From a virus, in the IMG/VR virus record IMGVR_UViG_3300022821_000013, positions 29,251 through 93,250 of that record: a DNA stretch of 64,000 nucleotides; one strand, given 5' to 3'. The position numbers and the translations under genes are program-made. Within the stretch, counting starts at the first letter, position 1, and every line of letters begins with the position of its first letter. The notes below the pieces were generated by a model. That model was not told where the DNA came from. It saw only the letters and a program-made list of their open reading frames with translations, and did no database searches. Of this stretch, positions 1,146-40,023 are shown piece after piece.

Positions 1146-1985
1146 TTATTTCTTTTTCTTTATATTTTTCATTTTATCAGAATATAGGAAATCTGACTGT
1201 TTCTTTATATAATCTCTATCATCTTGGTATTGTTCCATCATACTATTAATTGTATCATCATCCGTTCTACCAGAACGCATAGAGTTTATTATTTCGTCCT
1301 TTAATTCCATAGAAGTCTTCATTCTATGTGTTATATCGGCTTTAACATATTCTTCTTTTGTTTCTGGAATACCATTATAATCAATACCTTTAAATTTATG
1401 AGCTTGTAAATAATCTCTCTGTGCTTGGCTCATCTCTACATATTGATCTATAGTTATAGTATTTGGATTACCTGGATCAACACCCAATCCATATAAAAAT
1501 CTATATTGTATTTCTTCTGGAAAATTATAATCTATCAATTGATAATAATTAAAATTCTTTATTATCATCCGTCTATATGCTTTAGGCTTCTTATCAGTAA
1601 CATATTCACGTATAACACCATCATAATAACGTCTAGATGATAAATCCATTTTTAATTTTGGTATATCAAGTATAGTGTGCTTCTGCTCATAATATATATA
1701 TTTCAATCCATATTTGTCTGCTATATCATCAAATGAACTTACATCAAATGCGTCTAAATTTAATGCATGGACATAACCATCATAATTCTTATTAAGAACT
1801 AATAATAAATATTCATGTGGTTGATCTAAACCCTTACGTTGATATTCTTTGCTTGATGGGGTATAGTTACCAATGATAACCATACCTTTTTCAAGTCTAT
1901 TATGAACTATAGGAGTTTTACGTAAAATCCTATCACGATGTTGTAAGTTTTTAAAATGTCGTATATCTTTATATGACTTAGCCAT
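1146..1985 (-). CDS. Hypothetical phage protein (weak resemblance to T4 gp2 DNA end protector in LVLNKNYDGYVHALNL)
   Basis: 279-aa ORF overlapping its upstream neighbour; the function guess is weak. Confidence 0.45.
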   Translation of the reverse strand: MAKSYKDIRHFKNLQHRDRILRKTPIVHNRLEKGMVIIGNYTPSSKEYQRKGLDQPHEYLLLVLNKNYDGYVHALNLDAFDVSSFDDIADKYGLKYIYYEQKHTILDIPKLKMDLSSRRYYDGVIREYVTDKKPKAYRRMIIKNFNYYQLIDYNFPEEIQYRFLYGLGVDPGNPNTITIDQYVEMSQAQRDYLQAHKFKGIDYNGIPETKEEYVKADITHRMKTSMELKDEIINSMRSGRTDDDTINSMMEQYQDDRDYIKKQSDFLYSDKMKNIKKKK

Positions 1986-3300
1986 TAGACTTTACTTTAT
2001 TTAATTTAGGTAATTCTATCTTTTTCAATTTAGGTAATTCCATCTTAACTTCAGTTGGTATATCAGGAATATATCTATCTAATATCTGCTCAAACTTCAC
2101 TTGCATTTTATCCAATGAGAAGTTATTTCTAATTGCATTCATACCAGATTTGGCGTTTTTAGATAATTTAAGTTCATTAGTATGTTTATAATGCAAAAAC
2201 ATAACTTGCTTAAAATGTTCATAATCAGGTTCAAACCAATGTGATTCTGGTATTAATACATCTTCCCAAACAGCAGATTGGTGTATTTTCTCTAATTTAC
2301 CAGGTAACATATGATGGTCTTTTTTATTTAGAAAATCTAAATGTCCAGACCAACCACTTGCAATTACAGGTTTACCTATAGATGCAAATTCCAACATAGG
2401 TCTACCATAACCCTCACCCCTAGTTAGATTTACCATTGCTGATACTTTCTTGTGATTATACAATGAAACCATTTCTTTTTTGCTTAATTCACCATGTAAT
2501 AAGTAAATATTTGGAATTTTACTTTTATCGGTAAATATAGATTGAATCTTGTTGATTTTTTCAACTACCATATCTCTATCTGTTATAGATAATGTTCCAA
2601 CTGATGTTTTCAATATTAATGCTGGTTTAGCTCCTTCAGTATTATAGAATGTTTCTATAAATGATTTTACTAACATACCAGTATTCTTGCGATCTTGACC
2701 TAAATCACCATTTAACCAATGACCAACATATAAATATGCAAACTCTTCATCTATATTGTCTAATATATTAGCTATACTTGGTTCTACAGGAGTCTTCTTA
2801 TTAATTAATTTAGTATCAACACCCTCAAATAAAACCTCACATGGTCTCATAAGTTCAAGTTGACCAGTTCGATTACCATTATTATCTTTAATTTCATATT
2901 TAGAAACTTCAAATACATCTTTGCTATGTTTAGATGGAACTATAACTAAATCCATTTGATTACAACCCTCAATCCACTTAGCAGATGATAGGTTTGTTTC
3001 TATTCCAGCTGTAATACCAATATTGTATTTTCCTAACCTTTTAAATAATGATGGAACTGTAACCTGCATAAATATATCAGGTGCTTCAGTAACTTTAACT
3101 GCTATTCTATCAATAATACTTATATCATCAGGATCATTAGTATCTAATGCACCCATAGGAGTTGAACCCCAACGTGTAGGTAATATTGTAATATCATATT
3201 TGTCCATATTAATCAATGATACTGCTAAATCACGTGCGTGATGTCCGTATCCTGATAGGGTATCGACTGGCCCTTCAAAATATAATTTTAATTTTGACAT
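1978..3300 (-). CDS. Glycosyltransferase, GT-B fold (GT4-like)
   Basis: SGYGHHARD N-terminal motif, IVPSKHSK, RKN, and the GEGYGRPMLE (E-x7-E) / VIASGWSGHLDF motifs. Confidence 0.9.
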   Translation of the reverse strand: MSKLKLYFEGPVDTLSGYGHHARDLAVSLINMDKYDITILPTRWGSTPMGALDTNDPDDISIIDRIAVKVTEAPDIFMQVTVPSLFKRLGKYNIGITAGIETNLSSAKWIEGCNQMDLVIVPSKHSKDVFEVSKYEIKDNNGNRTGQLELMRPCEVLFEGVDTKLINKKTPVEPSIANILDNIDEEFAYLYVGHWLNGDLGQDRKNTGMLVKSFIETFYNTEGAKPALILKTSVGTLSITDRDMVVEKINKIQSIFTDKSKIPNIYLLHGELSKKEMVSLYNHKKVSAMVNLTRGEGYGRPMLEFASIGKPVIASGWSGHLDFLNKKDHHMLPGKLEKIHQSAVWEDVLIPESHWFEPDYEHFKQVMFLHYKHTNELKLSKNAKSGMNAIRNNFSLDKMQVKFEQILDRYIPDIPTEVKMELPKLKKIELPKLNKVKSNG

Positions 3301-3684
3301 TTATAATTCCTTTAAGAAGTTTTCTGGTATTTCTTTTTTATCACTAAATTTTCTAACTTTATCTATTTCGGCAACTACATTATCATCCGAATCTGTTATA
3401 ATCCACATAATAGTATTTTTTCCAAACTCTAACTCATATTGTAAATCAACTATTTCAAACTCGTAACGTATAGTTCCGTATGTAGTTGGGATTATATTAT
3501 GAACTGATATATTATTATATACTTCTTCTGGAAATAACTCTATAAAATTAACTAAACAATTTATAGATTCTATACATGGTGCAGGAGAACCCATACAATC
3601 AAAGTTATAATGTAATTCTTTAATTCTATAAACCTTCTTAATAAGTTTATTCTTCTCTATCTTATTTTGATTGATCATATACAA
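3301..3684 (-). CDS. Hypothetical protein
   Basis: 127-aa ORF packed between glycosyltransferases. Confidence 0.6.
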   Translation of the reverse strand: MYMINQNKIEKNKLIKKVYRIKELHYNFDCMGSPAPCIESINCLVNFIELFPEEVYNNISVHNIIPTTYGTIRYEFEIVDLQYELEFGKNTIMWIITDSDDNVVAEIDKVRKFSDKKEIPENFLKEL

Positions 3685-4612
3685 TTTTAGATGATTTGTT
3701 TTTAAATTGATCTATTTTAACATTCTCAAATGAAAACGTATCTACATCAGCCATATAGCCAACGAAGTCAGAATGTAATGTATCTATACATTTAATCATT
3801 CTGTTACACATATTCTTAGAAGTCATACCAGTTCTAACATCTAAACAATATTCTCTGGCTAATCGACCACGTCTATCACGTTCTTCTTTACCCATATCAT
3901 ATACTTTCTTTAGTGCATCAGCTACATCATTAGTAGAACAATAATCTTCGTATATATATGGTGTTGGTGGTGATCCAACCATAGTTCTTATTTTTGGATA
4001 TACTGGTAATACCCACTCACCATGTGTAGTATATTTACCATCAGCATTAGTCATCCAATCAGAGTTATAGTAACTTTCGTCAATTAACACGTCGTTTTCA
4101 TCTCTAAAGCCCATTTGATCTTGTAGCCCACCAGTAACATTTCCAATTATCATAGTACCAGCCATCATAGACTCGTGACTACTCAAACCCCAACCCTCAG
4201 CAAATGATATATTTAATGTTACATCTGATATATTATATAATCGGTTCATAGTTTTAGTATCTACTTTCTTAGGTGAAAATGCAACTTTATAATCAGGACA
4301 TAATGCCTCAATTACAGCTGGTAGATCAGTACCATTATTATCAATTGGATCTGTATGTAATATCAATACACATTTATCAGCTTTATCTTTTGGTAACATA
4401 TCACAGAACATCTTATAAGCTAATATAACATCGGATGGTCTTTTTCTTCTTATATTTCTATTAGACCAAAACACAGTAAATTCAGCATTTGTTCGTTGTA
4501 TATGGTCATTCTTAAACTTTAAAAATTCTTCATCATCTTCCTCAATAGGAAAATAATAATCTTCATTTATACCATGTGGTATATAGGATAAATACCTATT
4601 ATAATCTATCAT
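3662..4612 (-). CDS. Glycosyltransferase GT-B, C-terminal (nucleotide-sugar binding) half
   Basis: YIPHGI, NRNIRRKR, AEGWGLSSHE (E-x7-E), NVTGGLQDQ. Confidence 0.85.
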   Translation of the reverse strand: MIDYNRYLSYIPHGINEDYYFPIEEDDEEFLKFKNDHIQRTNAEFTVFWSNRNIRRKRPSDVILAYKMFCDMLPKDKADKCVLILHTDPIDNNGTDLPAVIEALCPDYKVAFSPKKVDTKTMNRLYNISDVTLNISFAEGWGLSSHESMMAGTMIIGNVTGGLQDQMGFRDENDVLIDESYYNSDWMTNADGKYTTHGEWVLPVYPKIRTMVGSPPTPYIYEDYCSTNDVADALKKVYDMGKEERDRRGRLAREYCLDVRTGMTSKNMCNRMIKCIDTLHSDFVGYMADVDTFSFENVKIDQFKNKSSKIVYDQSK

Positions 4613-11400: not shown

Positions 11401-14148
11401 TTAATAAAAATCATTACAATTTACATTATCAGTTGGTAATCTCCAATTAGCCGTATCATATATAGCTGATAGCTTATTACTTAACTCACTATCGTATATC
11501 TTCTCTATATTAATATATGTTTTTATAAACTCCATAATCTTAGGGTATGGTGTCTCCATAGGATAACCAATAATACTAAGGTTAAATGGATTATGTTTTA
11601 AATATACATATTTAATCTTATCACCTTGTTTTATAGCTTGATACTTAAAATCAGCATCGAAGAACTTCAATAATCTATTATACCCCAAAGCAGCCTTAAC
11701 TGGTGCAGTAGCACCTTTTTGAAACACATATATAGTTTTGTCCAACTCTGGATCATCATATTGATCTAACGTCTTAACAGATGATATTTTCGATATATAT
11801 TCTAGATCATCAGCAGTTATAGAGTTCATCAAATCAATTATTAGTTTATCACATTTAGGTTTATCATTTTCAATTAACATTATATTCAATAACGTAGATA
11901 AATGGTCTTGGAATTTAACTGGAAATGAAGATCTAACAACTTCAATACCTTTAAAGTCAATTGGATTGGCTAAATCACGTTTTCCCTCACTATCAACTAC
12001 ATATTGTGCATATCTCTTCTTACCTAACCATAAACCACGTCTAGTTATTTTCTCACGGTTAAACTTCAATCTATTATTATTAGAATGTAATGCTGATTTT
12101 GAGAATATCTCTAATGAATCATTTATAGAATTACAATAATCTTCTGCTATATCTGATAATTTATCTAAGTCTTCTTCTTTGTATTCTGATGGGTGAAATG
12201 GTAGATAACTTGAATCGGTATCATTATAGATAATAACATCATCAAATGGTAAGTCGTGTTTTACAGAGTATAGTTTGTTGAATACATACGATGCATATTT
12301 AATAATATCTCTACCAGTAGATGTTACTGCACTTGCATTCTCCAAGTCATAAAATCTAAATGTTTCTAATCCTAACACACCATATATAGAGTTTAATAGG
12401 ATTTTTTGTACTAATTGTAATTTATCATAATATCGTTCCATATCATAATCACCGTCTTTTCTACAAGACTTCATCTTATCTTTATAATCTAAACGTTTAT
12501 CAAACCAATCAGATAATATTTCTGGTATTAGACCTATTTTATCAGTAGAATACATCATACCATTAGAAGCTATAGTATATTTATTTTCTAATATAAACTC
12601 TATAAATTCATCTTTAGTAACTTCAAATACTTCTTTATTTAGATTTTCAAGTCTAAGTATAGTATCATCATTTATATAACCAAAGTCATAATTAATCTTA
12701 TCAAAATCAACATCACCATCAACAAAGCGTGATATATACTTCATCAGATTGACTTCTTCCCAATTCAATATCTTACCTGCTTTAGTTTCAGGAGATATAT
12801 TCAACGTTATAATGATAGATGGGTATAATGACTGTAAATCTATAGAGAATAACCATTCATATATATTAGTCTCTGGTAATCTAACGTATGCACCCTCAAA
12901 TGCTAATTTTATTTCTACGTTCTCTTTGAATGGTTTGGTTATATGTTTATTTAGATAAAATACACCATCTTCATAGTTATGATATTCATATACATCTGCT
13001 TTCTTAACTCTAAATACCTTTAATAAGCCATTAGTTGGTATTCTATGTCTTACAGCATCACAATCTACATGTAACTCATTAAGTCCTATTGTATGAGCTT
13101 TATTAGATGTTATATTCATACGTGGTTTCTTATTAGGTGCTATTATGGATTTTCTATCCATATAACTCATAATAGCACCTTCGATAACAGATGATGAATG
13201 TTTGAATTGTTGATATGGTATATGTGATATATGACATATTCTACGTGTCAACTCCACAAAGTCCAACTTAGCATCTAACTCTTTTATTAACTTAACATCG
13301 ACTAAGTTATACTCTATGAATTTTTCAATGTCTTCTCTGAATAACGTATCTAAACTACCCTCATAATCTATCTTACCATGACCTAATTCATGTTTAGATA
13401 CATAGTCTAGTTTATAACTTGGTAACTCTGAATAGTTATAGTTCTTATATACAATCATATAGTCTAATGACGCTAAACCTGCTATATCAACATACTTATT
13501 TCTTTCGCTATATTTAACTATACCTATAGGACTTAATTTCTTTACCCAATTATACCCTAATATATTTTTAATTCTAAAATATAGGTATCTAATATCAAAG
13601 TTATCACTGTTCCAACCTAATATTATATGTGGGCTTATTTCAGACATTTTATTTATAAACGCCTTTAATAGATTAACATCATTATTATAAGATGTAACAA
13701 TTACATTAGCTTCTTTATCATACGAATGTTTATGTTCTGACACTACAAATACATAATATATATCTGATGTCTGGTCGTACAACGCAATTGACGTTATATA
13801 ATTATTGGCTTCTTCCGTTATCAACTGACCAGATACCATTTCAACCTCTATATCGACAATAACTGTCTTTATATTAGTTGATACATCATCACTAAAATTA
13901 TACAATTTAATTAATTGGTCTATATCAGGTGATAGATCCACTTGTAGATAATCATCCGAATTTCCATTGTAAGTTTTGGATGTTACAACTGGATGATCAC
14001 TAAACAGATATTTCAATTCTGTTTCTTCTTTTGGATCCTTAGCTAATCTAAAAAATTCGGAATCACGTTCAAAAGATACATATCCTTCAGTGTCATCCCA
14101 TAAATGATATAGATTTTCCTTTCTATCAAAGTATATAGATTGGTACAT
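11401..14148 (-). CDS. Family B DNA polymerase (T4 gp43-like)
   Basis: Exo DIEVE, GWNSDNFD, YNLVD; polymerase DLQSLYPSII, KILLNSIYG, YNDTDS, KKRY. Confidence 0.97.
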   Translation of the reverse strand: MYQSIYFDRKENLYHLWDDTEGYVSFERDSEFFRLAKDPKEETELKYLFSDHPVVTSKTYNGNSDDYLQVDLSPDIDQLIKLYNFSDDVSTNIKTVIVDIEVEMVSGQLITEEANNYITSIALYDQTSDIYYVFVVSEHKHSYDKEANVIVTSYNNDVNLLKAFINKMSEISPHIILGWNSDNFDIRYLYFRIKNILGYNWVKKLSPIGIVKYSERNKYVDIAGLASLDYMIVYKNYNYSELPSYKLDYVSKHELGHGKIDYEGSLDTLFREDIEKFIEYNLVDVKLIKELDAKLDFVELTRRICHISHIPYQQFKHSSSVIEGAIMSYMDRKSIIAPNKKPRMNITSNKAHTIGLNELHVDCDAVRHRIPTNGLLKVFRVKKADVYEYHNYEDGVFYLNKHITKPFKENVEIKLAFEGAYVRLPETNIYEWLFSIDLQSLYPSIIITLNISPETKAGKILNWEEVNLMKYISRFVDGDVDFDKINYDFGYINDDTILRLENLNKEVFEVTKDEFIEFILENKYTIASNGMMYSTDKIGLIPEILSDWFDKRLDYKDKMKSCRKDGDYDMERYYDKLQLVQKILLNSIYGVLGLETFRFYDLENASAVTSTGRDIIKYASYVFNKLYSVKHDLPFDDVIIYNDTDSSYLPFHPSEYKEEDLDKLSDIAEDYCNSINDSLEIFSKSALHSNNNRLKFNREKITRRGLWLGKKRYAQYVVDSEGKRDLANPIDFKGIEVVRSSFPVKFQDHLSTLLNIMLIENDKPKCDKLIIDLMNSITADDLEYISKISSVKTLDQYDDPELDKTIYVFQKGATAPVKAALGYNRLLKFFDADFKYQAIKQGDKIKYVYLKHNPFNLSIIGYPMETPYPKIMEFIKTYINIEKIYDSELSNKLSAIYDTANWRLPTDNVNCNDFY

Positions 14149-14214: not shown

Positions 14215-14643
14215 TTAAGATCCAGTAGAACCAAATCCACCATCACCACGTTCGCTATTAGATAATTCATCTACTTCGATTAAATTAATATCTTCTAACT
14301 TCTCAATTATCAATTGAGCTACTCTATCACCAACACCATATACATCGTATGGTGGGTAGGCATTTGTGTATTTAAACATTACGAATATCTCACCTGTATA
14401 ACCACAATCTATTATACCAGTTGAATTAGCTAACATCAAATCAGTCTTTGATATTGAACTTCTTGGATATATTTTACCAACATAACCTTCTGGTATTTCA
14501 ATTGACAACCCAGTACCACATTTAATACCTATATTAGTATCAATTACTGATGTTGCAACCATATCAAACCCAGCATCTGTTTTATGTGCTTTGGTTGGTA
14601 TTTGTGCGTATTCATTTAATCGTTTAAATTTAACATTTAACAT
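14215..14643 (-). CDS. dut: Trimeric dUTPase
   Basis: AGFD, PRSS, GIIDCGYTGEI, GDRVAQL, RGDGGFGSTG. Confidence 0.97.
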   Translation of the reverse strand: MLNVKFKRLNEYAQIPTKAHKTDAGFDMVATSVIDTNIGIKCGTGLSIEIPEGYVGKIYPRSSISKTDLMLANSTGIIDCGYTGEIFVMFKYTNAYPPYDVYGVGDRVAQLIIEKLEDINLIEVDELSNSERGDGGFGSTGS

Positions 14644-14952: not shown

Positions 14953-14984
14953 AAAATGGGTAGTGGATTAAAATACTACCCATT
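14953..14984 (-). terminator. Putative intrinsic terminator after the T9SS-cargo-like gene
   Basis: 10-bp stem AATGGGTAGT/ACTACCCATT immediately after the stop codon. Confidence 0.65.
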
Positions 14985-14991
14985 ATTTTAT

Positions 14992-16548
14992 TTACATTGT
15001 AAATTTATAAACTGATGTTGTACCATCAAATTCAATTATAATCATAAAATACATACCACTATTATAACCTGATATGTCTATAGTTGGTTGTACAGAGTTA
15101 CCACTAACTTCATATACGACCTGTCCTATATAATTAGCTATATATAGATGTGATACTGTTCTTGGATTATCAATAGTAATTATACCATTGCTAATAGAAC
15201 TATATACACTTATATCTTGAATATTATTTTTATCTTCTATTTCAACACTTAAAGGTATATCCTTAATTAAAGTAACCAATATATTAACTGTATCTGGCTT
15301 AACGCTCTTTAAGCTATCAATAACAATAGCCATATCATCAATTACTTTATATAAACTATCTTCTTTACATTCATCTATAATAGTAACTAAACCAGTTTCA
15401 ACATTCAATTCCGTATATACATCATCAGTAACAAATTTGAACTTTAACGTTGAATCCATTGGATTAACTGTATATTTGTAATTAGTTTGTAATTGCCAAT
15501 TAGTATTTATTTTGGTAAATGTTTCTGATGAATTACGCTGAACATATACATATACATATCTAAAGTTAGTAGAATACGCCCAAGCAAACTCTATAACATC
15601 AGTAACTTTATATATACTTCCGATTGGACCAACTTCAAACCACTTGTATTGACTTTTGATTGTAACTTCATTTAACTTATAGCCCCACTCAGTATAAAAC
15701 TCTAATAATATAGTTTCATCTATACCAATTGAAGTTGTATATTCATATACAGATTGGTTATAAGGTATAATACCATACTCAACACCATCTTTATAAACTA
15801 CTATATGCGTATATTCTGATATTCTATTTGAGTTAATTAATAATTGTACTTTCTGACCATCTTTATAAGTTGATAGTTCAACTTCATTCTTATTGATTAC
15901 ATATAACTCTGCATTTACAAACGTAGCATTTTGTGTCTTTGCTATTGCATAATTAATACCGTCATAAGCAAGTCTAAATTTAACATCTTGCATAGCAAAT
16001 TCATTATGAACTGCTATAGTTTTAGATGCTACATCAACATCACCCAATCCAGTCCATGTACCTGATGCTAATTTATATTGTAGTTCTAATCTACTTGGAA
16101 CTGTACTAATATCAATATCCCAAGTTAAATAGAATATATCATCATACCAAATAGTATCTATGTTATTGAATGTACCTGATGCATAAATGACATTTATATC
16201 TACATCTGTAACGTCAGTTGGTAATATTGAGAATGTTCCAGAATTTCTATTTCCTGTGTGTATTCCAAGTTTACCATTTGAAATTAATCTATCGGGTATA
16301 TATTCTACCGATATAGTATTTGAGTTTCCCCAACCAAATGTATTAGATATTTTAGTCCATGTATTAGATGCTACATCTAACTCAGAAATATAAAAATCTG
16401 TTGGTGTGTTTGTTTCAATTACTTCTAATTGATATTCAACATCATAAAAATATTCCGATTTATTCGCTGTTTGTTGCTCGAACGTTTGTTCTGCATTTAC
16501 ATTGGTAGCGATTACCAGTAATAATGATAATATTAATTTGTTTATCAT
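14992..16548 (-). CDS. Secreted protein with Sec signal peptide and type IX secretion (Por) C-terminal sorting domain
   Basis: N-terminus MINKLILSLLLVIATNVNA|E; beta-rich body; C-terminus ISVY..ISNGIITI...LYIANYIGQVV...TIDISGYNSGMYFMII......VYKFTM fits the type A T9SS CTD pattern. Confidence 0.75.
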   Translation of the reverse strand: MINKLILSLLLVIATNVNAEQTFEQQTANKSEYFYDVEYQLEVIETNTPTDFYISELDVASNTWTKISNTFGWGNSNTISVEYIPDRLISNGKLGIHTGNRNSGTFSILPTDVTDVDINVIYASGTFNNIDTIWYDDIFYLTWDIDISTVPSRLELQYKLASGTWTGLGDVDVASKTIAVHNEFAMQDVKFRLAYDGINYAIAKTQNATFVNAELYVINKNEVELSTYKDGQKVQLLINSNRISEYTHIVVYKDGVEYGIIPYNQSVYEYTTSIGIDETILLEFYTEWGYKLNEVTIKSQYKWFEVGPIGSIYKVTDVIEFAWAYSTNFRYVYVYVQRNSSETFTKINTNWQLQTNYKYTVNPMDSTLKFKFVTDDVYTELNVETGLVTIIDECKEDSLYKVIDDMAIVIDSLKSVKPDTVNILVTLIKDIPLSVEIEDKNNIQDISVYSSISNGIITIDNPRTVSHLYIANYIGQVVYEVSGNSVQPTIDISGYNSGMYFMIIIEFDGTTSVYKFTM

Positions 16549-16612
16549 AACTAACCTAAAAATTTAACAACTATAAATAAATATAAGTTAAAATTTTAAT
16601 TCCTTTAAATAA

Positions 16613-16632
16613 AGCCGAGTTTTAAGTCGGCT
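16613..16632 (-). terminator. Putative terminator hairpin
   Basis: AGCCGA-N8-TCGGCT followed by TTATTT on the minus strand. Confidence 0.45.
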
Positions 16633-17144: not shown

Positions 17145-17176
17145 CAAACTTACAAAAAAGAAATTACTATTCCAAA
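17145..17176 (-). promoter_or_regulatory. Bacteroidota-type sigma-A promoter
   Basis: TTTGGAATAGTAATTTCTTTTTTGTAAGTTTG, 20-nt spacer. Confidence 0.8.
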
Positions 17177-17580: not shown

Positions 17581-18999
17581 TTATAAAATAAAATCTTTTT
17601 TTGAATCATCGAAATTCTCATCAGTTGCGAAAGTTATAGATTGTCTTTCTGATAACTTGCTATATATTGATGACACTGTTGTCTTCTTACTTTTTAATAA
17701 AACATCATCTTCTATTTTTAATTTGTCCATTAACACCTTAACATTTTTAGATGTAACATAACCAAATTTAAAATTACCTATCAATCTACCTTCTCTTAGA
17801 ATAGCTTTATCTATATCAAATTTATCAGTATTAAATGTTAATATCATTTGTATCTTCAAAGCACTATTTAATATACCATCAGTTGAGTTTAATAGATTGG
17901 ATATACCATTTGATACATTACCATTATCTCTACTTAATAATATCGATTCTGCCTCTTCGACGATTAATAATATATTCTCCTTTACGTCCTTATTCTGAGC
18001 TGATAGCTCAGTTAGAAAGCCAATAAACGAAGGATCAGTTAAGTTATTAATCATATTAGGCTGTACAAATATAACACATTTATTATCTAATCTACGTAAC
18101 ATATGCTTTATACAATAAGACTTACCAGAACCAGGTACACCGTGAAATAACACGATTCCTTTAGTTGATGTTCTTATATTAGAAACTAAACTTTCATATC
18201 TATCTTCAAACCCATCACCATAATGAATATCCAAATCTTCAAATTTATCATTTATATAATCTAATTTTATAGATTTCAATGTAAATCCAGAATGTGTTGT
18301 GCTTATTAAATTAACATATTCAGTCTTATTGATAATATCATTATATGATATAGTTGCTTTGGAAAAATACCCTATTATAGAATTATATACATCTATAGAA
18401 TCTTGTATTTTATCTGCACCATAAGGATTTATATCTAAAGTAATTGAACCTATATAAGAATCATTTAATGTTTCTGAATCGTAATCATCATCGTAATATA
18501 TATCATCGTCATCTGTATCAACTTGATATTTAGTATCATCATTTAAACCCATTATATTAATTGTTAATATACAAGGCAAACCATTTAATGTATACTTAAA
18601 GTCTAAATATAAATCTCTATTTATTTTACCACGCATCCCTATCAATGAGAAACCAAGTGATAATATTTCATCTAATACAGAATCGTCGTATTTGTGAACT
18701 ACTCGTTTTTTACTTTTAAAACTATTATTTAAAATGGAAGTTATATCAATTGTTATTGGTGTATTAAGACCACCAGAAGTTATGAACCTACGTTTTATCA
18801 ATGTAGAATTAGAGTTAGTATCATAATCCAACGTAACAATAGCATTAGCATCGTCATCACGTGACAATTTATTAGTTATATCTATTTTTGATATTAATTT
18901 AAGAATACTCTTATACATTCTATTAGTTAATATATTATTATGTATTGTATTAGAGTTTATTTTTTCTATACTACTATTAGTTCCATTTGATATTAACAT
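17581..18999 (-). CDS. AAA+ ATPase
   Basis: Walker A HGVPGSGKS, Walker B LLIVEEAE, LLNSTDG, DKAILREGRL (arginine finger region). Confidence 0.85.
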   Translation of the reverse strand: MLISNGTNSSIEKINSNTIHNNILTNRMYKSILKLISKIDITNKLSRDDDANAIVTLDYDTNSNSTLIKRRFITSGGLNTPITIDITSILNNSFKSKKRVVHKYDDSVLDEILSLGFSLIGMRGKINRDLYLDFKYTLNGLPCILTINIMGLNDDTKYQVDTDDDDIYYDDDYDSETLNDSYIGSITLDINPYGADKIQDSIDVYNSIIGYFSKATISYNDIINKTEYVNLISTTHSGFTLKSIKLDYINDKFEDLDIHYGDGFEDRYESLVSNIRTSTKGIVLFHGVPGSGKSYCIKHMLRRLDNKCVIFVQPNMINNLTDPSFIGFLTELSAQNKDVKENILLIVEEAESILLSRDNGNVSNGISNLLNSTDGILNSALKIQMILTFNTDKFDIDKAILREGRLIGNFKFGYVTSKNVKVLMDKLKIEDDVLLKSKKTTVSSIYSKLSERQSITFATDENFDDSKKDFIL

Positions 19000-19053: not shown

Positions 19054-22000
19054 TCACCCACATTTACTAGAGCCACAATCTAAACAAGTAAGACACCCAT
19101 CCTGATATGCTAAATTTGTGGATTTGCATTCGGAACATTCATGCCCAGTTACAACTTCCAAATCATTTATATATCGTTTAAGTATACGTTTAACACCTGA
19201 TTTCCATGATGTTATAATATCACCATCTAAATTAAGACCATCTAATAAATCAACCACATATTTGATTGGCATACCATGCCTTAAAATAGCACTTACAATT
19301 CTACTAACATCATCGAATTCCTTAATCCCATACATTTTCAAATCAATAGTTGTAATTCTATCATCACCCTTCATATATATAAATATATATTCTGATTTAC
19401 CGTTTATTTTGGTTCGTTCAATCCAACCATTAGTAACATTATTAAGATTAAAATCTATATTATCAACTGGAATGGTAAATAGTTCGTATGGCTTATCATT
19501 ATATAATCCAACAAAACCAAACCATTTAGTACCATTAGATGTAAAATGAATAACATCACAATTTATTGTTTTGGGTCGTTTTGGTGCTTTAGTATCTTCA
19601 AATAAATCAATTTTAGTATCATTATTTGAAATTAAAACTCCACTACGAGATCCATCTCTATATATAGTACACCCCTTACATCCACTTTCCCAAGCAGTCA
19701 AATATATTTTATCAACTGTATCCTCATCAATATCATTTGGTAAATTAACCGTTACTGATATTGAGTGATCTACCCATTTCTGTATTTCACCTTGCATCTT
19801 AACTTTCTCCACCCAATTAACATCATTTGATGTTGCTTTATAATATGGAGACATAGATATTATAATATTAATCGTATTTTCATCTAAACCTACAAGATAT
19901 TCTTTACATTGATTATAATCCCATGATTCACTTATAACATCATTAGTTATATTAGAACGTATGTCATTCTGATTGTAAAAGAACCAATCTATGAATTTAT
20001 GGTGAAATACATTAAATTCCATCCATTTATCACCTAATTCATCTACAAAATCAACACGTGTATTTCTATCAGTTGGATTTATTTTTCTTCGTCTTCTATA
20101 TGAAACTAAAAACACAGGTTCAACCCCAGATGAAGTCTGTGTCATCATTGATACAGTTCCAGTTGGAGCAATAGTTAGTAACCCAATATTACGTCTTCCA
20201 TATTTCAATAAGTCATCTTTTATAGATGGGTCAGATTCTAATATCCTATTTATAAATGGATTGTCTTTCTCTATATCCCAATCCCATATTGGAAAATTAC
20301 CTCTATCTTTTGCTAATTGAACTGATTCCCTGAATACATTTATAGCATAACGTTTATGAACTTCTACTGAAAATTCAGTAGCAGGTGGAGTTCCATATAT
20401 TAATCCCATAGCAGCTAACATATCACCTTCACCAGTAACACCTATACCAGTTCGCCTACCCATCTCACATTTATATTTAATTTTAGTCCATAAATCAATT
20501 TCAGTTTGCTTGGTATTAATATCTTCAGGGTCTAAATTTATTTTTTCTAATATAGAATCAATTTTTTCTAATTCCAAATCAACTATATTATCCATTATTC
20601 TCATAATATATTTAGAATGTTCATCGAATAATTCCCAATCAAATTCAGCGTGTTTTGTAAATGGATTTTTAACGTAACTATATAAATTTAAAGCAGTTAA
20701 TCTACAACTATCATATGGAGGTAAAACAATTTCACCACATTGGGCAGTGAATACACCTATCATATTATTATGTCCAATTGAATTTTCTTTTATATCAGTT
20801 ATAAATGCCAATGTATGATTATCATCAACAGTTATATTATATACATCTTCATAACCATATATCTCTACAGATTTTACTTTGTGGTTATAATCAATGGATT
20901 TATATTTTAATTCTTTATATGTTTTAAATGGTGAATTAGGTCCAAATCTAAATGGAATATTATTTGTTTTACATCGTTCCTCCCACTCTACTTTGAGTGG
21001 GGTTCTATCCAATTCAAATTTCAAATCAGAATATATCTTAATTTGTAAGTCTTTATGTTTAATTTTAGTATCACTTGCTTGTCTACGAAGACCATTTAAA
21101 TTAGAGTTATCTGGTTTAGACCATGAATTCAAAGTAGAACATTTACGTGAACAAAATGTAGACTCTTTTGCATCATACGTAGTGTGGAATTCAGAGTTGC
21201 AATTTTCACATTTTTTATTAATGTAAACCTTACCTGTATCTATAAATACATCCAAATTCAAATCCATACCTTTATGTAATGTTTTAACTACTCTAGGATC
21301 AACATCATTATATTCACCAAATCCAAGTTTATTTGCTGCCCACACTGATAAATCGTTTAAATCATACCCTAAAGTATCAACTCTCCATTTTGATAATGAC
21401 TGTGGTATACCTTTCGATTTAGCAAATGTTGACCATTCCTTATAAGAAAATCTTCTTCTGAGTGTACTCGTTAAATCCAACGCATATTCTTTAATGTCTT
21501 CATTTGTAAATCCAGAGTATTTTCCATTCTTTTCTCCTTGTGTATCATTATCAGCATGATACTTGGCATGTTCTCTGAATGTCATAATCTCTAGATTATC
21601 AGGTGAATTATTTAATCCATTATAATCTTTATGATGTACAACCAAGCCACCATTAACCCAACCATTAACCTTATTTGCATTGTATTTTTCAGACCATAAT
21701 TCTGGATTGTTATATTTAGCAATTAACTTATGCTCAAATAATTTATCAATCGTAGAATCTTTGGTATTAGTATTAATTCTATAATATGGATTAGTATTAT
21801 TCTTTGATATGCGTTCTGAACGTTTAGTAAACCTCATTAAACTATCACCACATTTCAAATCCTTAGCCTCTATTTTAGTACCATCATATAATAAAAATTT
21901 ATGATTTGTAGTTGTCTTAATAGATGAGCCATCATCAAGTGTTATTTTTAGAATTTGTCTATCATTAACAGTTAGTCTTGGATTCCTACCCATTTTAATA

Positions 22001-23103
22001 TCTACTTTCCCAGTGATTGGATCTACACTATAAACAGGAACATCTTCTCCAATCTCAGCTAATTCTCGTATAGGAACACTATTTCTACCATCTGCAACCG
22101 CAACTAATGTATCCCCAGTCACACATGGATTTGTACTTACATCTCCAAAACCATATTCTTTATAACAATTACCAATTGATTCAGATAACATTTTATCCCA
22201 AAACATTACTCCTGGTTCTGCACTATTCCAAGCATTATGAATTATTTTAGACCATATATCCCTTGCTATTATTTTATTTCTTAATTCAGTCCCATCATTA
22301 TATTTAAAAACTAAATCATAACATATTTTATTCTCTAATTCATCAAGTTTAGTCTGTTCTGAATCAGTTATATCTAATTTATCACGTAACGTTTTATATA
22401 AATCTACATCTTCTTGGTTTGTTCGTTTGACAATAAACATAAATTCATCTAACATTTTAACTGATACATTAGCACCAGTTACCTTACCACTTTCCATTTT
22501 AGCATCTATAAAATCACCTACATCTGGATGCGAAACCAAAATAGATAGCATAAGTGCACCTCTCCTACCATCTTGACCAACTTCCCTTGTAGAATTTGAA
22601 TATCGTTCCATAAATGGAACTACACCTGTGGATGTTTTAGCTGAATTGTTCACAGGGCTATGTTTGGGTCTTATATGAGATAAATCATGACCAACCCCAG
22701 CTCTCCTCTTCATTAGATGTACTTGTTCTTCATCTATTTTAAGTATAGATCCATATGAATCTTCATCATTACCAATAACAAAGCAATTACTTATACTTAT
22801 AGTTTGTAAATCATTTCCTATGCCAAACATAGGACTTCCTTGTGGGATTATATATTTAAATCTATCAAATAAATTGAAATAAAAAGCTGAATCCTTCGCA
22901 TTTGGATATTTATTATCGATTCTAGAAATTTCATCCGATAACCTCCAATGCATATTTTCTGGATTTAACTCATAATAAATATTATCTTTATTCAATGAAT
23001 ATTTCGAAATCCAAGTTGTGGCTGAAATATCTTCATTGTTAAAATAGTTTTTTGTACTTTCTAATAAATCATCGTATGAATATGTATTCTGACTTATATC
23101 CAT
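19054..23103 (-). CDS. nrdJ: Class II (adenosylcobalamin-dependent) ribonucleotide reductase, intein-containing
   Basis: SNCFV, GQDGRRGALML, EPG, TNP|C...|CGEI, RRTGIG, TIAPTGT, SSGVEP, KGCTIYRDGSR, C-terminal Zn ribbon; no beta-subunit gene nearby. Confidence 0.93.
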   Translation of the reverse strand: MDISQNTYSYDDLLESTKNYFNNEDISATTWISKYSLNKDNIYYELNPENMHWRLSDEISRIDNKYPNAKDSAFYFNLFDRFKYIIPQGSPMFGIGNDLQTISISNCFVIGNDEDSYGSILKIDEEQVHLMKRRAGVGHDLSHIRPKHSPVNNSAKTSTGVVPFMERYSNSTREVGQDGRRGALMLSILVSHPDVGDFIDAKMESGKVTGANVSVKMLDEFMFIVKRTNQEDVDLYKTLRDKLDITDSEQTKLDELENKICYDLVFKYNDGTELRNKIIARDIWSKIIHNAWNSAEPGVMFWDKMLSESIGNCYKEYGFGDVSTNPCVTGDTLVAVADGRNSVPIRELAEIGEDVPVYSVDPITGKVDIKMGRNPRLTVNDRQILKITLDDGSSIKTTTNHKFLLYDGTKIEAKDLKCGDSLMRFTKRSERISKNNTNPYYRINTNTKDSTIDKLFEHKLIAKYNNPELWSEKYNANKVNGWVNGGLVVHHKDYNGLNNSPDNLEIMTFREHAKYHADNDTQGEKNGKYSGFTNEDIKEYALDLTSTLRRRFSYKEWSTFAKSKGIPQSLSKWRVDTLGYDLNDLSVWAANKLGFGEYNDVDPRVVKTLHKGMDLNLDVFIDTGKVYINKKCENCNSEFHTTYDAKESTFCSRKCSTLNSWSKPDNSNLNGLRRQASDTKIKHKDLQIKIYSDLKFELDRTPLKVEWEERCKTNNIPFRFGPNSPFKTYKELKYKSIDYNHKVKSVEIYGYEDVYNITVDDNHTLAFITDIKENSIGHNNMIGVFTAQCGEIVLPPYDSCRLTALNLYSYVKNPFTKHAEFDWELFDEHSKYIMRIMDNIVDLELEKIDSILEKINLDPEDINTKQTEIDLWTKIKYKCEMGRRTGIGVTGEGDMLAAMGLIYGTPPATEFSVEVHKRYAINVFRESVQLAKDRGNFPIWDWDIEKDNPFINRILESDPSIKDDLLKYGRRNIGLLTIAPTGTVSMMTQTSSGVEPVFLVSYRRRRKINPTDRNTRVDFVDELGDKWMEFNVFHHKFIDWFFYNQNDIRSNITNDVISESWDYNQCKEYLVGLDENTINIIISMSPYYKATSNDVNWVEKVKMQGEIQKWVDHSISVTVNLPNDIDEDTVDKIYLTAWESGCKGCTIYRDGSRSGVLISNNDTKIDLFEDTKAPKRPKTINCDVIHFTSNGTKWFGFVGLYNDKPYELFTIPVDNIDFNLNNVTNGWIERTKINGKSEYIFIYMKGDDRITTIDLKMYGIKEFDDVSRIVSAILRHGMPIKYVVDLLDGLNLDGDIITSWKSGVKRILKRYINDLEVVTGHECSECKSTNLAYQDGCLTCLDCGSSKCG
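20740..22125 (-). mobile_element. Intein (462 aa) with HNH homing endonuclease, ending in Gln
   Basis: Splits the active-site NP/CGE; begins CVTGDTLV, block B TTNHKF, HHKDYNGLNNSPDNL...H..YH, block F EDVYNITVDDNH, ends VFTAQ before C+1. Confidence 0.92.
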
Positions 23104-32122: not shown

Positions 32123-35100
32123 TTAATTTACGGATTGATTTTCAGTTAAAATTCCAACTGTACCATTGTCCCATTTTGGATTTGATGGTAATACACCATC
32201 TTTATACATTGTAACTGTTACAACACGTTGACCTTTAGATTTTTCACCATAACCAACAGAACGCATATCACTACCAAATGCAATTGAAGCTAATATTTGA
32301 TTTGTTCTATTTGCATCACTAACACTACCACCAGCCTTAAAGTTAGATACGACTCCAGCCTTAATATTGGATGCTCGCCTAAATGATAATTTGTAATTAT
32401 ATTCATCTGGTCCGCTTGGTGATGCATGACCCTCTATATCAAATTTAGCTTTTGGATTTTTTAACTTCTGGTCTATTATATAATTAGTAACATTTATAAC
32501 CTCACTCGATTTTTTAGGTGTATCTACATTATCATCAAAATCAATATTAAATGTGTATATAACTGGTTCTGGTTTTTCTTCTTCCACAACTGGTTCTGGT
32601 TTTTCTTCTTCCACAACTGGTTCTGGTTTTTCTTCTTCCACAACTGGTTCTTCTGTATATACATCACCAACATAATCATAAATTCTACCCATTTTCCTAG
32701 GTTTGTAATTCCCAATTATAGTGTAATTCATATCAACCCTAACACCCATTGGTAATTCTAATATATCATTATCAGATGATTCTTGATATAAATTTTTTAT
32801 TTCCCAGTTATCTTCTCTAAATGTATATGTTAAATTAGTTATGAAACCTGGTACTTGCCAGTATAAATCACCTAATGTCAATCTTAATAGTGGCCCCCAC
32901 ATACGTTTATCTTTATATACAGGAGCTAACATAGAAGCTAAATAGTTTATTTTCTCATATATAACTTGCATTTCAACTCTGGAAAATGCATGCATATCAA
33001 AACTCAATGTCAAATTTCTATCATACGATTTATAAATATAAACTGGATCAGCTCTACCTATTAATCCATAAGAATCCCAATTAGCATTATGATTTTCAAC
33101 TACACTATTTAAGAATGCTCTCATTACGATAGCGTGATAACCTAAATTACTTTTGTGTTTTGGATCTGATTGTTCAGTTTGAATATCTATCGTATCATCA
33201 GATTCTTCTTTTGTATCACCAAATACAGATGGTTCTATATCTATCTCATTCTTATCTAATAACGTACCACGTGAATCATATTGCTTATCAAACATAAGCC
33301 CTGCACAAGTAATAAAGAATTTTATATAATCTCTTGATCCTTGATTGTATATCTCCGATGCATCTTGACTTAAAATATTTGATTTTTCACTTGCATCTAC
33401 AGTTTTAGAGAAGTCTCTAACCTTAATCATATTAATTTTATCTTCTCTATAAGTTCTCATTCTAGGATCAGACCTATCTATACCTGGTAATCCCTCTTGA
33501 CCCCAACCATATTTCATAATATTTGAATTGTCATAAGTGTTAACTATATTAGGATCGTAATTATAATTAAAGAACTTAGAATCTTTAGTATCTGTACTTG
33601 CTGATATGACATATCTATAGTCTTCTAATTCTTTTGGGTTATATGCTGGATCTCTATTATATCCAAAAAAATCATATCCTGTAGTTGCATATGCACCTAA
33701 TGATTGATCCATTGGTTTTAATCCATCTAAATATTTACCCTCTCGATTATAACTCTCTTCTAATAAATTATCAGTATTATTATGAGTCTTATTAGCTATA
33801 AACGTATTTATTAAATGATTATTGTGATCTACATCACCATATTTTAAAAATTTAGATATTAATGATTTATTTTTAGTTAACTCTTCAAATGGATCACCAT
33901 TATGCTCATCTAATAATTTAGTAGCTGTACTGTTAGGTACACGTGTTCCATTAGCAGATGAATAATATTGAAAGTAAGGTGAATAATATTGATATAATCT
34001 ACTATCTTCTGTTTCTGATATTGAATATCTACGTATTAACGTAGCTCCTATACCAAATATACTCTGTGCACCAGTAGATCTAGATGATATTTTATTTATA
34101 ATATCACCAACATACGAATCTTTTCCTGTTGCAATCCAAGTTATTAAATTTGATATTTTAGATAGAGTTTTATCATATACATCACTAGCATTTAAATATG
34201 AATCTCTAACTGAATAGTGGTGTGGGAATAATTCTTTTGTTAACATTAACAATCTATTATCTGTTCCTTGTTCACCTATAACTAATGACGTATCAACCTG
34301 TGATAGATTTTTACCTTGACTCGTCACATTCCTTTTATTTACTATATATTCGTAATTTTTATGCTTTTCAAATGGAAGTTCCAATCCATGCCTTTGAATT
34401 CTCATTCCACCTGAAGATAGAATAGTTGATAATGGATTGTATATCTGTGTTGATCTAATATTAAATATATTTTCTATCAAACCAAATCCATCCGATGGTG
34501 TCTCAACCGTAGAGTTCATCAATTGCATTCCAACTTGCCTAATAGTATTTAGTATTCCTTTTGCAGAACCCATATACTTTGTTATTCTATAAGCATGTGT
34601 CGCTGAACGGTCGATATACGGTGATAAACGTTCGTATAGGTAAGATTTGTCAAACCCATATCTATTTGGCTCACCATCAAGCTGAATACCACGTAGAATG
34701 TATGGTTGTTGCATCCAATCGTTTTGATGTGATGTATCTCTAAGATTAAACTTAGAATATTGTTCTTTTAGATTTTTATCCGAAAGTATAAAATCAGTTG
34801 ACTTTGGAATTTTGTAAGGTATAAATCCTTTACTGTATTTATTAGAGAACCAATCCACAGGAACCATATTATTCGCTTTCCAAACAAACTCTGATGTATC
34901 CATTATATATTCAGTTTGTTTGATAACATTAAATATAGTAAATCCAGTTGCATTAACATCAGCAAAGAAATTAACACTATTTGGAATCATACCTTTCCAT
35001 ACGAATATGGACGTGTCCATTATGTATTCGGTTATCAGTGGTGGTGCAAATAAAGTAAATCCAGTTGCATTTGTATTAGGGAACCAATTTACAGCTGGTA

Positions 35101-39900: not shown

Positions 39901-40023
39901 ATCTAGTTCTTCTTGTTCATACTTTTGGCTTTGTATAACATCATGAAGATCATCTTGTAACTGTCTCAATTCCTTTAAATTTTCAACACGTTTATTATGT
40001 AGTTCTTGTTCTTTAGGATCCAT
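36916..40023 (-). CDS. Tape measure protein
   Basis: 1035 aa, helical, hydrophobic Ala/Val stretch, LIDVESSL..EMEA...G..INLDAAR; downstream of the tube and chaperone genes. Confidence 0.8.
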   Translation of the reverse strand: MDPKEQELHNKRVENLKELRQLQDDLHDVIQSQKYEQEELDRLHTSIIKKQKENKKILTDIKKLSNKGNVSNNKNVDVSIDKSLHRFNTNLNKSTNLLIDLNRKLRSISKIPNMVGGEVKSNRNSFHNSGAYKRNFDNPTSVKNEDGEYSLRTRIKLFKAQMKYQRVMDQIREKEARKEQIRLDRDEAFRIKTETKLFKAQMKYQRVMDQIREKEARKEQMRLDRDEAFRIKTETKVFKAQMKYQRVMEQIRNKDARDKQKEENIKQRLIDRDEKERIRVNTKLFKAQMKHQRVMEQIREKEARDKLRTEIKIFNSMMKHQRVMDQHKAREGKKYLTGLKKQYNEEQKLQKEQLKFKSHPVNMIGGAPERFTQRLEKSRVGRVVSHLGGFAKKSTNFKEKFKHNYFANENAVKQGLMKDPGKMGMAFKSMNQTLGPAIASVRGMSAAMAGLSAAAVVVGATVAIVAVVVVGAIVAIALVVKAIVDMNQSLADLGKKAGTSANQITNMVNASRQLANQFEKTSALGTTFLKVLELQVDYQKELGGLMMSGGISKTYDSMLESLMLITANLGLSVQEASNLNLVSLALGSNFNSMVHGISGVMMAMEDGTGVILDWRNVFKELSNIPLDIAAGFKGTTQEMVLLVQKSKMLGRSLKDIDGFGNKLIDVESSLKDEMEARIIYGKNINLDAARYYQMIGRTDLMFESILEQAGSLNEFTSKLPFQQQAFAKALGMTSEELTDILTRQQNIRDLGFNVYDMGIDDLKNKLDGITDTRKRMIVQEVLRSKRSLSFMESLGLAWDKIKDVLLGPLVEPLNRVLDRFVYELNRPDSAFAKVVSNLSDWLDNNFESTIKSIAGFLMNLPKMMNGLLEMLASDKPIFYSIGEKIGEGIMSGMGNAFGNLFYAMGDGLMRMIFGSFYPLVKYMADGSGKGDTNKSKSDNEKGGNPMDDATKKSNRNMQEATNNSKANEQSRYFGKPIDPNIYDPAEQHYKALVEAMAEFNRLMANMKINVNLDGQKVGEATNKANANFGPTPSRY
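39030..39560 (-). repeat. 120-nt (40-aa) repeats in the tape measure N-terminal region
   Basis: KLFKAQMKYQRVMDQIREKEARKEQIRLDRDEAFRIKTET: two near-identical copies plus three degenerate partial copies. Confidence 0.9.

What the first reader, a model, noticed from the sequence alone, without database searches (positions are those of the whole stretch)
14953..16583. Phage-encoded substrate of the host type IX secretion system, in its own transcription unit
Seen: a 518-aa protein with a Sec signal peptide, a beta-strand-rich body, a linker with DSL/DSL/DTV tripeptides and a C-terminal ~75-aa domain (ISVY..ISNGIITI...IANYIGQVV...IDISGYNSGMYFMII...KF). It has a TATTTAT box upstream (16573-16583) and a hairpin downstream. 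Established: this C-terminal pattern is the type A T9SS sorting domain (TIGR04183) of Bacteroidota/FCB bacteria, and D-(S/T)-(hydrophobic) is their O-glycosylation sequon. Inference: the phage routes its own protein through the host T9SS to the cell surface or medium, for superinfection exclusion, receptor masking, jamming of secretion/gliding, or aggregation. I am not aware of a described phage T9SS cargo system. The usual YPNP motif is degenerate here (YSSI).
Basis: partly seen in the sequence, partly recalled or inferred. Interest (0 to 1): 0.88.

Follow-up and report, generated by a model that had tools for sequence, protein, structure and literature searches.

The report
Phage-encoded type IX secretion cargo protein
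A large uncultured phage of a Bacteroidota host encodes an exported chain of antibody-like domains that ends in a real but divergent tag for the host's type IX secretion system, so the phage probably puts its own protein on or outside the infected cell; such phage cargo has been noted in the literature but never tested.

Summary
Window 14992-16548 (minus strand) encodes a 518-aa protein with these parts:
- a Sec-type signal peptide;
- four Ig/FN3-like beta-sandwich domains;
- a helix and linker carrying DSL/DSL/DTV and a lone conserved Cys;
- a 70-aa C-terminal domain.

That domain scores just under the curated cut-offs as a single sequence (PF18962 25.2 vs 27 bits; TIGR04183 19.4 vs 23). It is nevertheless a genuine type A T9SS sorting domain:
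- the family profile aligns to real CTDs at 97.9% probability;
- all 36 tested tail-only hits of the family profile carry PF18962;
- the motif-D Gly and the near-terminal Lys are conserved.
Only the YPNP motif is lost, in the whole family.

The carrier is a T4-like myovirus fragment with textbook Bacteroidota promoters. The gene sits in the replication module between two hairpins, behind a phage promoter-like box that also precedes most virion genes.

The claim that phage T9SS cargo is undescribed is wrong: Bellas 2020 and de Jonge 2019 report it, cultured Flavobacterium phage immuto carries one, and this scan has noted others on other phage DNA. This is a new, phage-only cargo family. Its function is untested.

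The parts
16613..16632 (-). Terminator-like hairpin followed by TTTATTT. It closes the upstream unit, which starts at a Bacteroidota-type promoter at about 17152.
   Evidence: scan. (-9.8 kcal/mol, z -3.36). (promoter at 17152).
16553..16585 (-). Conserved upstream block that starts with the TATATTTAT promoter-like box (16585-16577). The block is nearly identical in loci L008 and L006, although the proteins there are only 50-55% identical.
   Evidence: alignment. (the block occurs once in the window). (TATATTTAT: 13 of 20 coding-strand copies lie in the 8.6% of the record that is non-coding, mostly before virion genes). (binomial P 6e-10).
14992..16548 (-). CDS, 518 aa plus stop: the phage T9SS cargo candidate (P0001).
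16492..16548 (-). Signal peptide, residues 1-19; predicted cleavage VNA|EQ.
   Evidence: the features are present in 16 of 19 members. (helix 2-16).
16180..16491 (-). Domain 1, residues 20-123: the most conserved Ig-like 'head' (motifs PTDFY, F-WG, GIHTG-RN, PTD).
15370..16179 (-). Domains 2-4, residues 124-393: three FN3/Ig-like sandwiches that would form a 'stalk'.
15205..15369 (-). Residues 394-448: lone conserved Cys394, amphipathic helix 395-409, a low-confidence linker with DSL411 and DTV419, and the LIKDIP-VE-E motif.
14995..15204 (-). Residues 449-518: type A T9SS C-terminal sorting domain. Motif D Gly475 and motif E G498/Y500/K515 are kept; motif B (YPNP) is lost.
14955..14984 (-). 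Hairpin 8 nt after the stop codon, followed by TTTT. A hairpin stands at the same place in L006 and L007.

Best explanation
The gene encodes a phage-made substrate of the host's type IX secretion system.

Proposed path:
1. The protein crosses the inner membrane by Sec, and the 19-residue signal peptide is removed (inferred).
2. It folds in the periplasm into four Ig/FN3-like domains, a helix and a 7-stranded sandwich CTD (predicted).
3. The CTD is bound by PorV at the SprA translocon, with Lys515 as the conserved contact. The protein crosses the outer membrane and the CTD is cut off in the linker (inferred from F. johnsoniae and P. gingivalis).
4. The mature protein is left attached to, or released from, the infected Bacteroidota cell. 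It is a conserved N-terminal head on an Ig-like stalk.

Likely role: it has no enzyme-like domain, so it most likely acts by binding. My split is:
- about 35%: masks or occupies a surface receptor, giving exclusion of other phages or protecting progeny from adsorbing to infected cells and debris;
- about 25%: acts as an adhesin to particles, polysaccharide or other cells;
- the rest: unknown.

Transcription: it is transcribed as its own unit from a phage-specific promoter class that also precedes most virion genes, and not from the host-type promoters that stand before short unannotated ORFs and some replication genes and that I take, without expression data, to be early.
For: The CTD is a homologue of the type A sorting domain:
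- hhalign of the 19-member family against 36 bona fide PF18962 proteins gives probability 97.9%, E 6e-13, over 89 columns that run to both C-termini.
- The family profile, searched against 1.84 billion proteins, hits the extreme C-termini of proteins of many lengths. All 36 that I tested carry PF18962, best E 1.9e-17.
- 8 of 19 members hit PF18962 on their own.

Functional residues:
- Lys515, fourth from the end, is kept in 18 of 19 members. Lauber 2024 (PMC10994853) names this near-terminal Lys as the only conserved translocon contact, and says the other motifs only specify the fold.
- Gly475 (motif D) is invariant. Motif D is needed for PorM binding (preprint 10.1101/483123).

Export: a signal peptide is present in 16 of 19 members.

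Host phylum:
- The motif GTAA[AG]TTTGTA occurs 12 times, on the coding strand only and always between genes.
- 9 of the 12 have TTTG exactly 20 nt upstream, which is the Bacteroidota -33/-7 promoter.
- The major capsid protein is 44% identical to that of Flavobacterium phage immuto.

Precedent: immuto has a signal peptide-cohesin-CTD gene 3 kb from its RNR gene.

Phage-specific and syntenic:
- The order DnaB, RNR, ATPase, this gene is the same in L008; the short contig L006 holds the ATPase-like ORF followed by this gene.
- No relative was found in 185,579 species genomes.
- The gene is not in the virion module.
Against: - As a single sequence the domain is below both curated cut-offs (25.2 vs 27 bits; 19.4 vs 23 bits).
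- Motif B (YPNP) is absent from the whole family.
- The host is unknown, so its T9SS is inferred from the phylum only.
- There are no expression or secretion data; no RNA run holds the stretch.
- The signal peptide was judged by heuristics, not by SignalP.
- The record is only about 48% complete.
Confidence: 0.72

Rival explanations
1. T9SS or gliding jammer. The protein's job is not to be displayed but to occupy or poison the translocon or its track. This would stop delivery of the host adhesins that serve as phage receptors, and stop gliding. Occupancy could be by the CTD alone, or by a disulfide from the lone Cys394 next to the CTD.
For: - The CTD is genuine.
- A single Cys is kept at the same alignment column in 17 of 19 members, just before the helix and CTD.
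- T9SS and gliding depend on disulfides between outer-membrane proteins and GldK Cys343 (PMC12635249).
- Phage resistance in Flavobacterium maps to gliding and T9SS genes (10.1101/2020.10.02.323337 and PMC9804748).
Against: - A jammer needs no 390-residue conserved body. The N-terminal head is the best conserved part, which points to a function of the cargo itself.
- Nothing shows that the Cys meets a host partner; a homodimer disulfide is just as likely.
Confidence: 0.12
2. Virion protein. It would be a Hoc-like capsid or tail decoration made of Ig-like domains, with the C-terminal sandwich serving as the virion-binding domain. The N-terminal hydrophobic stretch would not be a working signal peptide.
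For: - The TATATTTAT box is shared with the tube, the adaptor and other virion-module genes.
Against: - Signal-peptide features are conserved in 16 of 19 members while their sequence drifts.
- The C-terminal domain is homologous to secretion tags, and the translocon-contact Lys is kept.
- The gene lies between the dUTPase and RNR genes, 13 kb from the virion module.
- There is no PHROG match.
Confidence: 0.08
3. The protein is exported, but not through the T9SS. It would stay in the periplasm or outer membrane, and the CTD-like sandwich would be a decayed or re-used domain. The loss of YPNP would mark loss of the sorting function.
For: - Scores are below the curated thresholds.
- Motif B is lost in every member.
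Against: - The domain is always at the very C-terminus and ends in the canonical Y-K-F-x-K tail.
- Motifs D and E are under selection across members that are 21-50% identical.
- Lauber 2024 states that the conserved motifs specify the fold, not the contacts, and the fold is predicted intact.
Confidence: 0.08

Closest known systems
'Cryophage' T9SS-CTD cargo genes (Bellas et al. 2020, PMC7468147)
   Same: Phage-encoded proteins with a type A T9SS sorting domain, read as hijacking the host T9SS. The evidence there is computational only.
   Different: The cargoes there are recognisable enzymes or a PA14 protein (an endoglucanase, a GH39, a PA14 protein) and are hypervariable islands. Here the cargo is a phage-only Ig-like string with no enzyme domain. 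The pieces laid from other salt-lake samples were letter-identical.
Flavobacterium phage vB_FspM_immuto protein immuto35A_15 (QQO91933.1, annotated 'cohesin domain-containing protein')
   Same: The phage is a related T4-like myovirus of a Bacteroidota host (MCP 44% identical). The gene encodes a signal peptide, a cargo and a type A CTD, and lies close to the RNR gene.
   Different: It is 243 aa, with a cohesin-like cargo and a canonical CTD (39.3 bits, YPVP motif present). Outside the CTD it shows no sequence relation to this family.
F. johnsoniae type A substrates RemA, RemZ and NucA (CTDs solved on the SprA-PorV translocon: 8gl6, 8gl8, 8glk)
   Different: Those are host-encoded and carry motif B. 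The phage family has replaced YPNP, and as a single sequence it scores under the curated HMM cut-offs.
Hoc, the Ig-like capsid decoration protein of T4-like phages (RB49 Hoc, 3shs)
   Different: Hoc has no signal peptide and no T9SS-type tail, and it is a virion protein. The resemblance is in fold only.
GhpA grappling-hook protein of Aureispira (9flw and others)
   Same: It is the top Foldseek match and is a long string of Ig-like domains from a Bacteroidota organism. From memory, it is a T9SS substrate.
   Different: It is a giant host protein. The match is the generic multi-Ig architecture (TM 0.25), not homology.

Membership tests
Type A T9SS C-terminal sorting domain (PF18962 / TIGR04183) | Score at or above the curated HMM cut-off | tested here: inconclusive
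   hmmscan of the protein gives PF18962 25.2 bits against 27 and TIGR04183 19.4 against 23. The six-frame scan gives 27.6 bits, over the cut-off. At profile level, hhalign gives 97.9%, E 6e-13.
Type A T9SS C-terminal sorting domain (PF18962 / TIGR04183) | Domain lies at the extreme C-terminus of the protein | tested here: met
   Residues 449-518 of 518. The alignment runs to the last residue of both profiles.
Type A T9SS C-terminal sorting domain (PF18962 / TIGR04183) | 7-stranded beta-sandwich fold | tested here: met
Type A T9SS C-terminal sorting domain (PF18962 / TIGR04183) | Motif B (YPNP-like, first strand) | tested here: not met
   It is replaced by YSSISN here and by 'l-i-n' in the family consensus. 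According to Lauber 2024 the motifs specify the fold rather than the translocon contacts.
Type A T9SS C-terminal sorting domain (PF18962 / TIGR04183) | Motif D (i-D--G--v) with its conserved Gly | tested here: met
   Gly475 is invariant in 19 of 19 members.
Type A T9SS C-terminal sorting domain (PF18962 / TIGR04183) | Motif E and the almost invariant Lys near the C-terminus that contacts PorV | tested here: met
   G498 and Y500 are present. K515 is fourth from the end, like RemZ K1110 (the RemZ CTD chain 8gl8_D aligns to residue 1113). It is K in 18 of 19 members and R in one.
Type A T9SS C-terminal sorting domain (PF18962 / TIGR04183) | N-terminal Sec signal peptide on the same protein | tested here: met
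   The three-part pattern is present in 16 of 19 members. This is a heuristic; SignalP was not available.
Type A T9SS C-terminal sorting domain (PF18962 / TIGR04183) | The host has a T9SS, and secretion depends on it | not testable with these tools
   The host is uncultured. Only its phylum is inferred, from Bacteroidota -33/-7 promoters and from relatives.
Type B T9SS CTD (PF13585 / TIGR04131) | HMM match | tested here: not met
   PF13585 has no match anywhere in the 93-kb record at E <= 1.
Hoc-like virion decoration protein | Cytoplasmic protein (no signal peptide) encoded with virion genes and found in virions | tested here: not met
   A signal peptide is present and the gene lies in the replication module. 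Virion content is not testable here.

The most novel reading that the evidence does not exclude
The protein is a covalent poison or tether of the T9SS and gliding machinery. Its CTD would deliver it to the translocon, where the lone conserved Cys394 next to the CTD forms a disulfide with a host component; for example, it might compete with PorG or SprF for GldK Cys343. That would freeze secretion and gliding, and so shut off delivery of the surface adhesins that rival phages use as receptors.
Probability: 0.06. Interest if true: 0.85.

Novelty: new member of a known kind. Interest (0 to 1): 0.45.

Why it matters
The T9SS builds the surface of Bacteroidota, including adhesins, gliding proteins and enzymes. 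Phage resistance in Flavobacterium maps to T9SS and gliding genes. A phage gene that feeds its own protein into this machine would be a way for a lytic phage to remodel the infected cell's surface.

The idea has been in print since 2019-2020 but has never been tested. This family offers a clean test case:
- it is found only in phage or metagenome contexts;
- it has a compact CTD that lacks the YPNP motif but keeps the one Lys that touches PorV, so it also tests which CTD features really matter for sorting;
- it has a conserved head domain that should have a findable ligand.

Tried and rejected
Searches that found nothing:
- tblastn of the protein against 50,697 GenBank phage records: no match.
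- Pattern scan of IMG/VR with alignment A1: no relative.
- Pattern scan of 185,579 species genomes: no relative.
- PHROGs: no family for the protein.
- PF13585 (type B CTD) in the whole record: none.

- The genome search could not reach the metagenome loci L006-L008.

Weak or unusable results:
- The first AF2 model, from 4 sequences, was too poor to use (pLDDT 57).
- Whole-model Foldseek searches returned only generic multi-Ig strings.
- The ESM Atlas search with domain 1 gave only weak generic Ig-like (Kre9_KNH) leads, all under 0.85.
- The PDB profile search gave weak hits that nevertheless agree with the CTD reading (5jvk_A E 0.003; NucA CTD 8glk_D E 0.058).
- The homotrimer prediction for residues 300-518 gave no verdict.
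- No RNA holder was listed for the stretch.
- Laying contigs of four salt-lake runs gave only short, low-depth pieces. They were identical to the window where they covered it, so they say nothing on expression or variability.

Considered and dropped:
- The Bacteroidota 'Q-rule' (Gln at +1 after signal peptidase cleavage). The conserved Gln21 is at +2 if cleavage follows Ala19. Cleavage before Gln would put Asp or Glu at -1.

Full report
**1. What is there.**
Window 14992-16548 (minus strand) is a 518-aa ORF. The window is the last 64 kb of a 93,250-bp IMG/VR virus record that CheckV rates as about 48% complete. GC content is about 28%, and every ORF assigned here, together with nearly all long ORFs, lies on the minus strand.

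PHROG scans identify a T4-like myovirus.
- Replication and nucleotide genes at about 5-28 kb: clamp loader, exonucleases, PolB (11401-14148), dUTPase (14215-14643), an ATPase-like protein (17581-18999), an RNR large subunit with an HNH-bearing insert that is probably an intein (19054-23103), DnaB, a UvsX-like recombinase and SSB.
- Virion genes from about 31 kb on: baseplate wedge and hub, tube, sheath, adaptor and major capsid protein.

So the gene lies inside the replication module, 13 kb from the nearest virion gene.

**2. The protein.**
The N-terminus is a classic Sec signal: K4, a hydrophobic core, then V-N-A before EQTF. Of 19 family members, 16 share this three-part pattern, although that stretch is only 25% identical across the family. 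The other three look cut short at the N-terminus.

An AlphaFold2 model built on the 19-sequence alignment reaches pLDDT 85.2. It shows:
- four beta-sandwich domains (about 20-123, 124-210, 211-300, 301-393);
- a helix (395-409);
- a low-confidence linker;
- a last sandwich (449-518).

The sequon D-[ST]-[AILMTV] occurs about twice as often as expected across the family, 113 against about 50. The DSL at 411 is kept in 17 of 19 members. These tripeptides sit in an amphipathic helix and linker of 50-79 residues, where the IDSL pattern looks heptad-like by eye (no coiled-coil predictor was run). Glycosylation is therefore possible but not needed to explain them.

One feature was unexpected. A lone Cys (C394) stands at the start of that helix. 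It is kept at that column in 17 of 19 members and is the only Cys in most of them.

**3. Is the tail a T9SS sorting domain?**
As a single sequence it is borderline: PF18962 25.2 bits against 27 (E 2e-5), TIGR04183 19.4 against 23, and 27.6 bits in the six-frame scan. Four further lines settle it.

- (a) A profile of the family, searched against 1.84 billion proteins, found about 19 full-length relatives. Beyond these it found dozens of hits confined to the last 60-90 residues of proteins from 62 to 857 aa. All 36 that I tested carry PF18962, best E 1.9e-17.
- (b) hhalign of the family against those 36 gives 97.9% probability, E 6e-13, and the alignment runs to both C-termini.
- (d) The residues that matter are kept.
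  - Lauber et al. 2024 state that the conserved motifs specify the fold, and that the one conserved translocon contact is a Lys near the C-terminus.
  - Here K515, fourth from the end, is kept in 18 of 19 members.
  - Gly475 of motif D, which is needed for PorM binding, is invariant.

Only motif B (YPNP) is missing, in the whole family. I file the domain as a divergent but genuine type A CTD.

**4. Host and transcription.**
The record carries GTAA[AG]TTTGTA 12 times. All copies are on the coding strand and all lie between genes. In 9 of them TTTG stands exactly 20 nt upstream. From my own knowledge, this is the Bacteroidota sigma-A promoter (TTTG at -33, TAnnTTTG at -7).

The closest cultured capsid relatives are 'Microcystis' phage Mel-JY01 (52%), Flavobacterium phage immuto (44%) and Rhodothermus phage RM378 (36%). 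A Bacteroidota host, and hence a T9SS, is therefore likely but not shown.

One host-type promoter lies at about 17152, before a 104-aa ORF. A hairpin with a T-run (16632-16613, z -3.4) closes that unit.

The cargo gene then has its own box, TATATTTAT, 28 nt before the ATG. Of the 20 coding-strand copies of this 9-mer, 13 lie in the 8.6% of the record that is non-coding (P about 6e-10). Most of them stand before virion genes; the others stand before the RNR gene and a gene at 5244.

The 33-nt block from this box to the start codon is almost unchanged in loci L008 and L006, where the protein is only 50-55% identical. A hairpin follows the stop codon in the window, in L006 and in L007.

'Its own transcription unit' is thus well supported by sequence. 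Expression together with the virion genes is an inference.

**5. Distribution.**
The family is small: 25 cluster representatives at E <= 1e-10. The ten members whose records I looked up are all unnamed and come from metagenome assemblies (Logan, ENA, JGI), one of them also held in NCBI.
- L008 repeats the order DnaB, RNR, ATPase, this gene; the 3.5-kb contig L006 holds only the ATPase-like ORF followed by this gene.
- L007 places the gene in another phage-like context.
- No relative was found in GenBank phages, in IMG/VR by pattern scan or in 185,579 species genomes.
- Shorter variants (408-466 aa) keep the head and the CTD but have fewer middle domains.
- The stretch is held letter for letter by several salt-lake metagenomes.

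**6. Comparison and novelty.**
- Bellas et al. 2020 reported three type A CTD cargo genes in 'Cryophage' and proposed hijacking of the host system.
- de Jonge et al. 2019 saw T9SS sorting-domain ORFs in crAss-like phages.
- The cultured phage immuto, a relative of this one, has a signal peptide-cohesin-CTD gene 3 kb from its RNR gene.
- This scan has also noted T9SS-tagged phage genes on other phage DNA.

I found no experimental test of any of them. This is therefore a new member of a known, computationally described kind. What is new is the cargo family: it is phage-only, it has a conserved head, a lone Cys and a helical linker, and its CTD lacks YPNP.

**7. Verdict.**
- The protein is routed through Sec and the host T9SS to the cell surface or the medium: about 0.72.
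- Among the roles, receptor masking or exclusion and adhesion are the most plausible.
- A jamming or covalent-tether role centred on Cys394 is the most novel reading still open.
- A Hoc-like virion role is unlikely because of the conserved signal peptide and the gene's position.

Noticed in passing
window 17152, 24571, 11374, 51026 (minus strand), and 8 more in the first 29 kb of the record: There are twelve strand-specific, strictly intergenic copies of AAAATTTG-N20-TAAGTTTG-like promoters, the Bacteroidota -33/-7 type. They stand before short unannotated ORFs and some replication genes. This is the best evidence for the host phylum.
   Followed up: yes
window 63610, 59070, 57395, 54106, 48334, 45839, 45799, 41770, 36896, 23154, 16585, 5553 (minus strand): A second promoter-like class, TATATTTAT(A/T)TAT, is enriched between genes. 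It stands mostly before virion genes, sometimes only 13-15 nt from the ATG, and also before the RNR gene and the cargo gene. It may be a phage-specific middle or late promoter.
   Followed up: partly
L002 (Microcystis phage Mel-JY01, PP395634.1): This is the closest cultured capsid relative (52% identity). Its genome holds 7 forward and 0 reverse copies of GTAARTTTGTA, against a control of 1 and 1. That is a Bacteroidota-type promoter signature in a phage recorded as infecting a cyanobacterium. It has no PF18962 match.
   Followed up: partly
L005 4692-5423 (Flavobacterium phage immuto, immuto35A_15): A 243-aa protein with a signal peptide, a domain annotated as cohesin and a canonical type A CTD (39.3 bits) lies 3 kb downstream of the RNR alpha gene. 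It is a different cargo in a comparable genome region of a related phage.
   Followed up: partly
window 15367-15369 (Cys394 codon): A lone Cys at the start of the helix before the CTD is kept at that column in 17 of 19 family members and is the only Cys in most of them. This suggests an intermolecular disulfide with an unknown partner.
   Followed up: partly
window 19054-23103 (minus strand): The RNR large subunit gene encodes 1349 aa. HNH-endonuclease matches in the middle (residues about 430-660) suggest an intein with a homing endonuclease.
   Followed up: no
window 1978-3300 and 3662-4612 (minus strand): Two glycosyltransferase-like genes (phrog_2170) lie downstream of the replication genes. 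Their target (DNA, lipopolysaccharide or protein) is unknown.
   Followed up: no
window 48344-49069 (minus strand): A PhoH-like gene sits inside the virion module, between the capsid and adaptor genes. Mel-JY01 has the same arrangement.
   Followed up: no
window 32123-36883 and 36916-40023 (minus strand): Two very large proteins (1586 and 1035 aa) in the baseplate region have no PHROG match. They are probably fibres or receptor-binding proteins.
   Followed up: no
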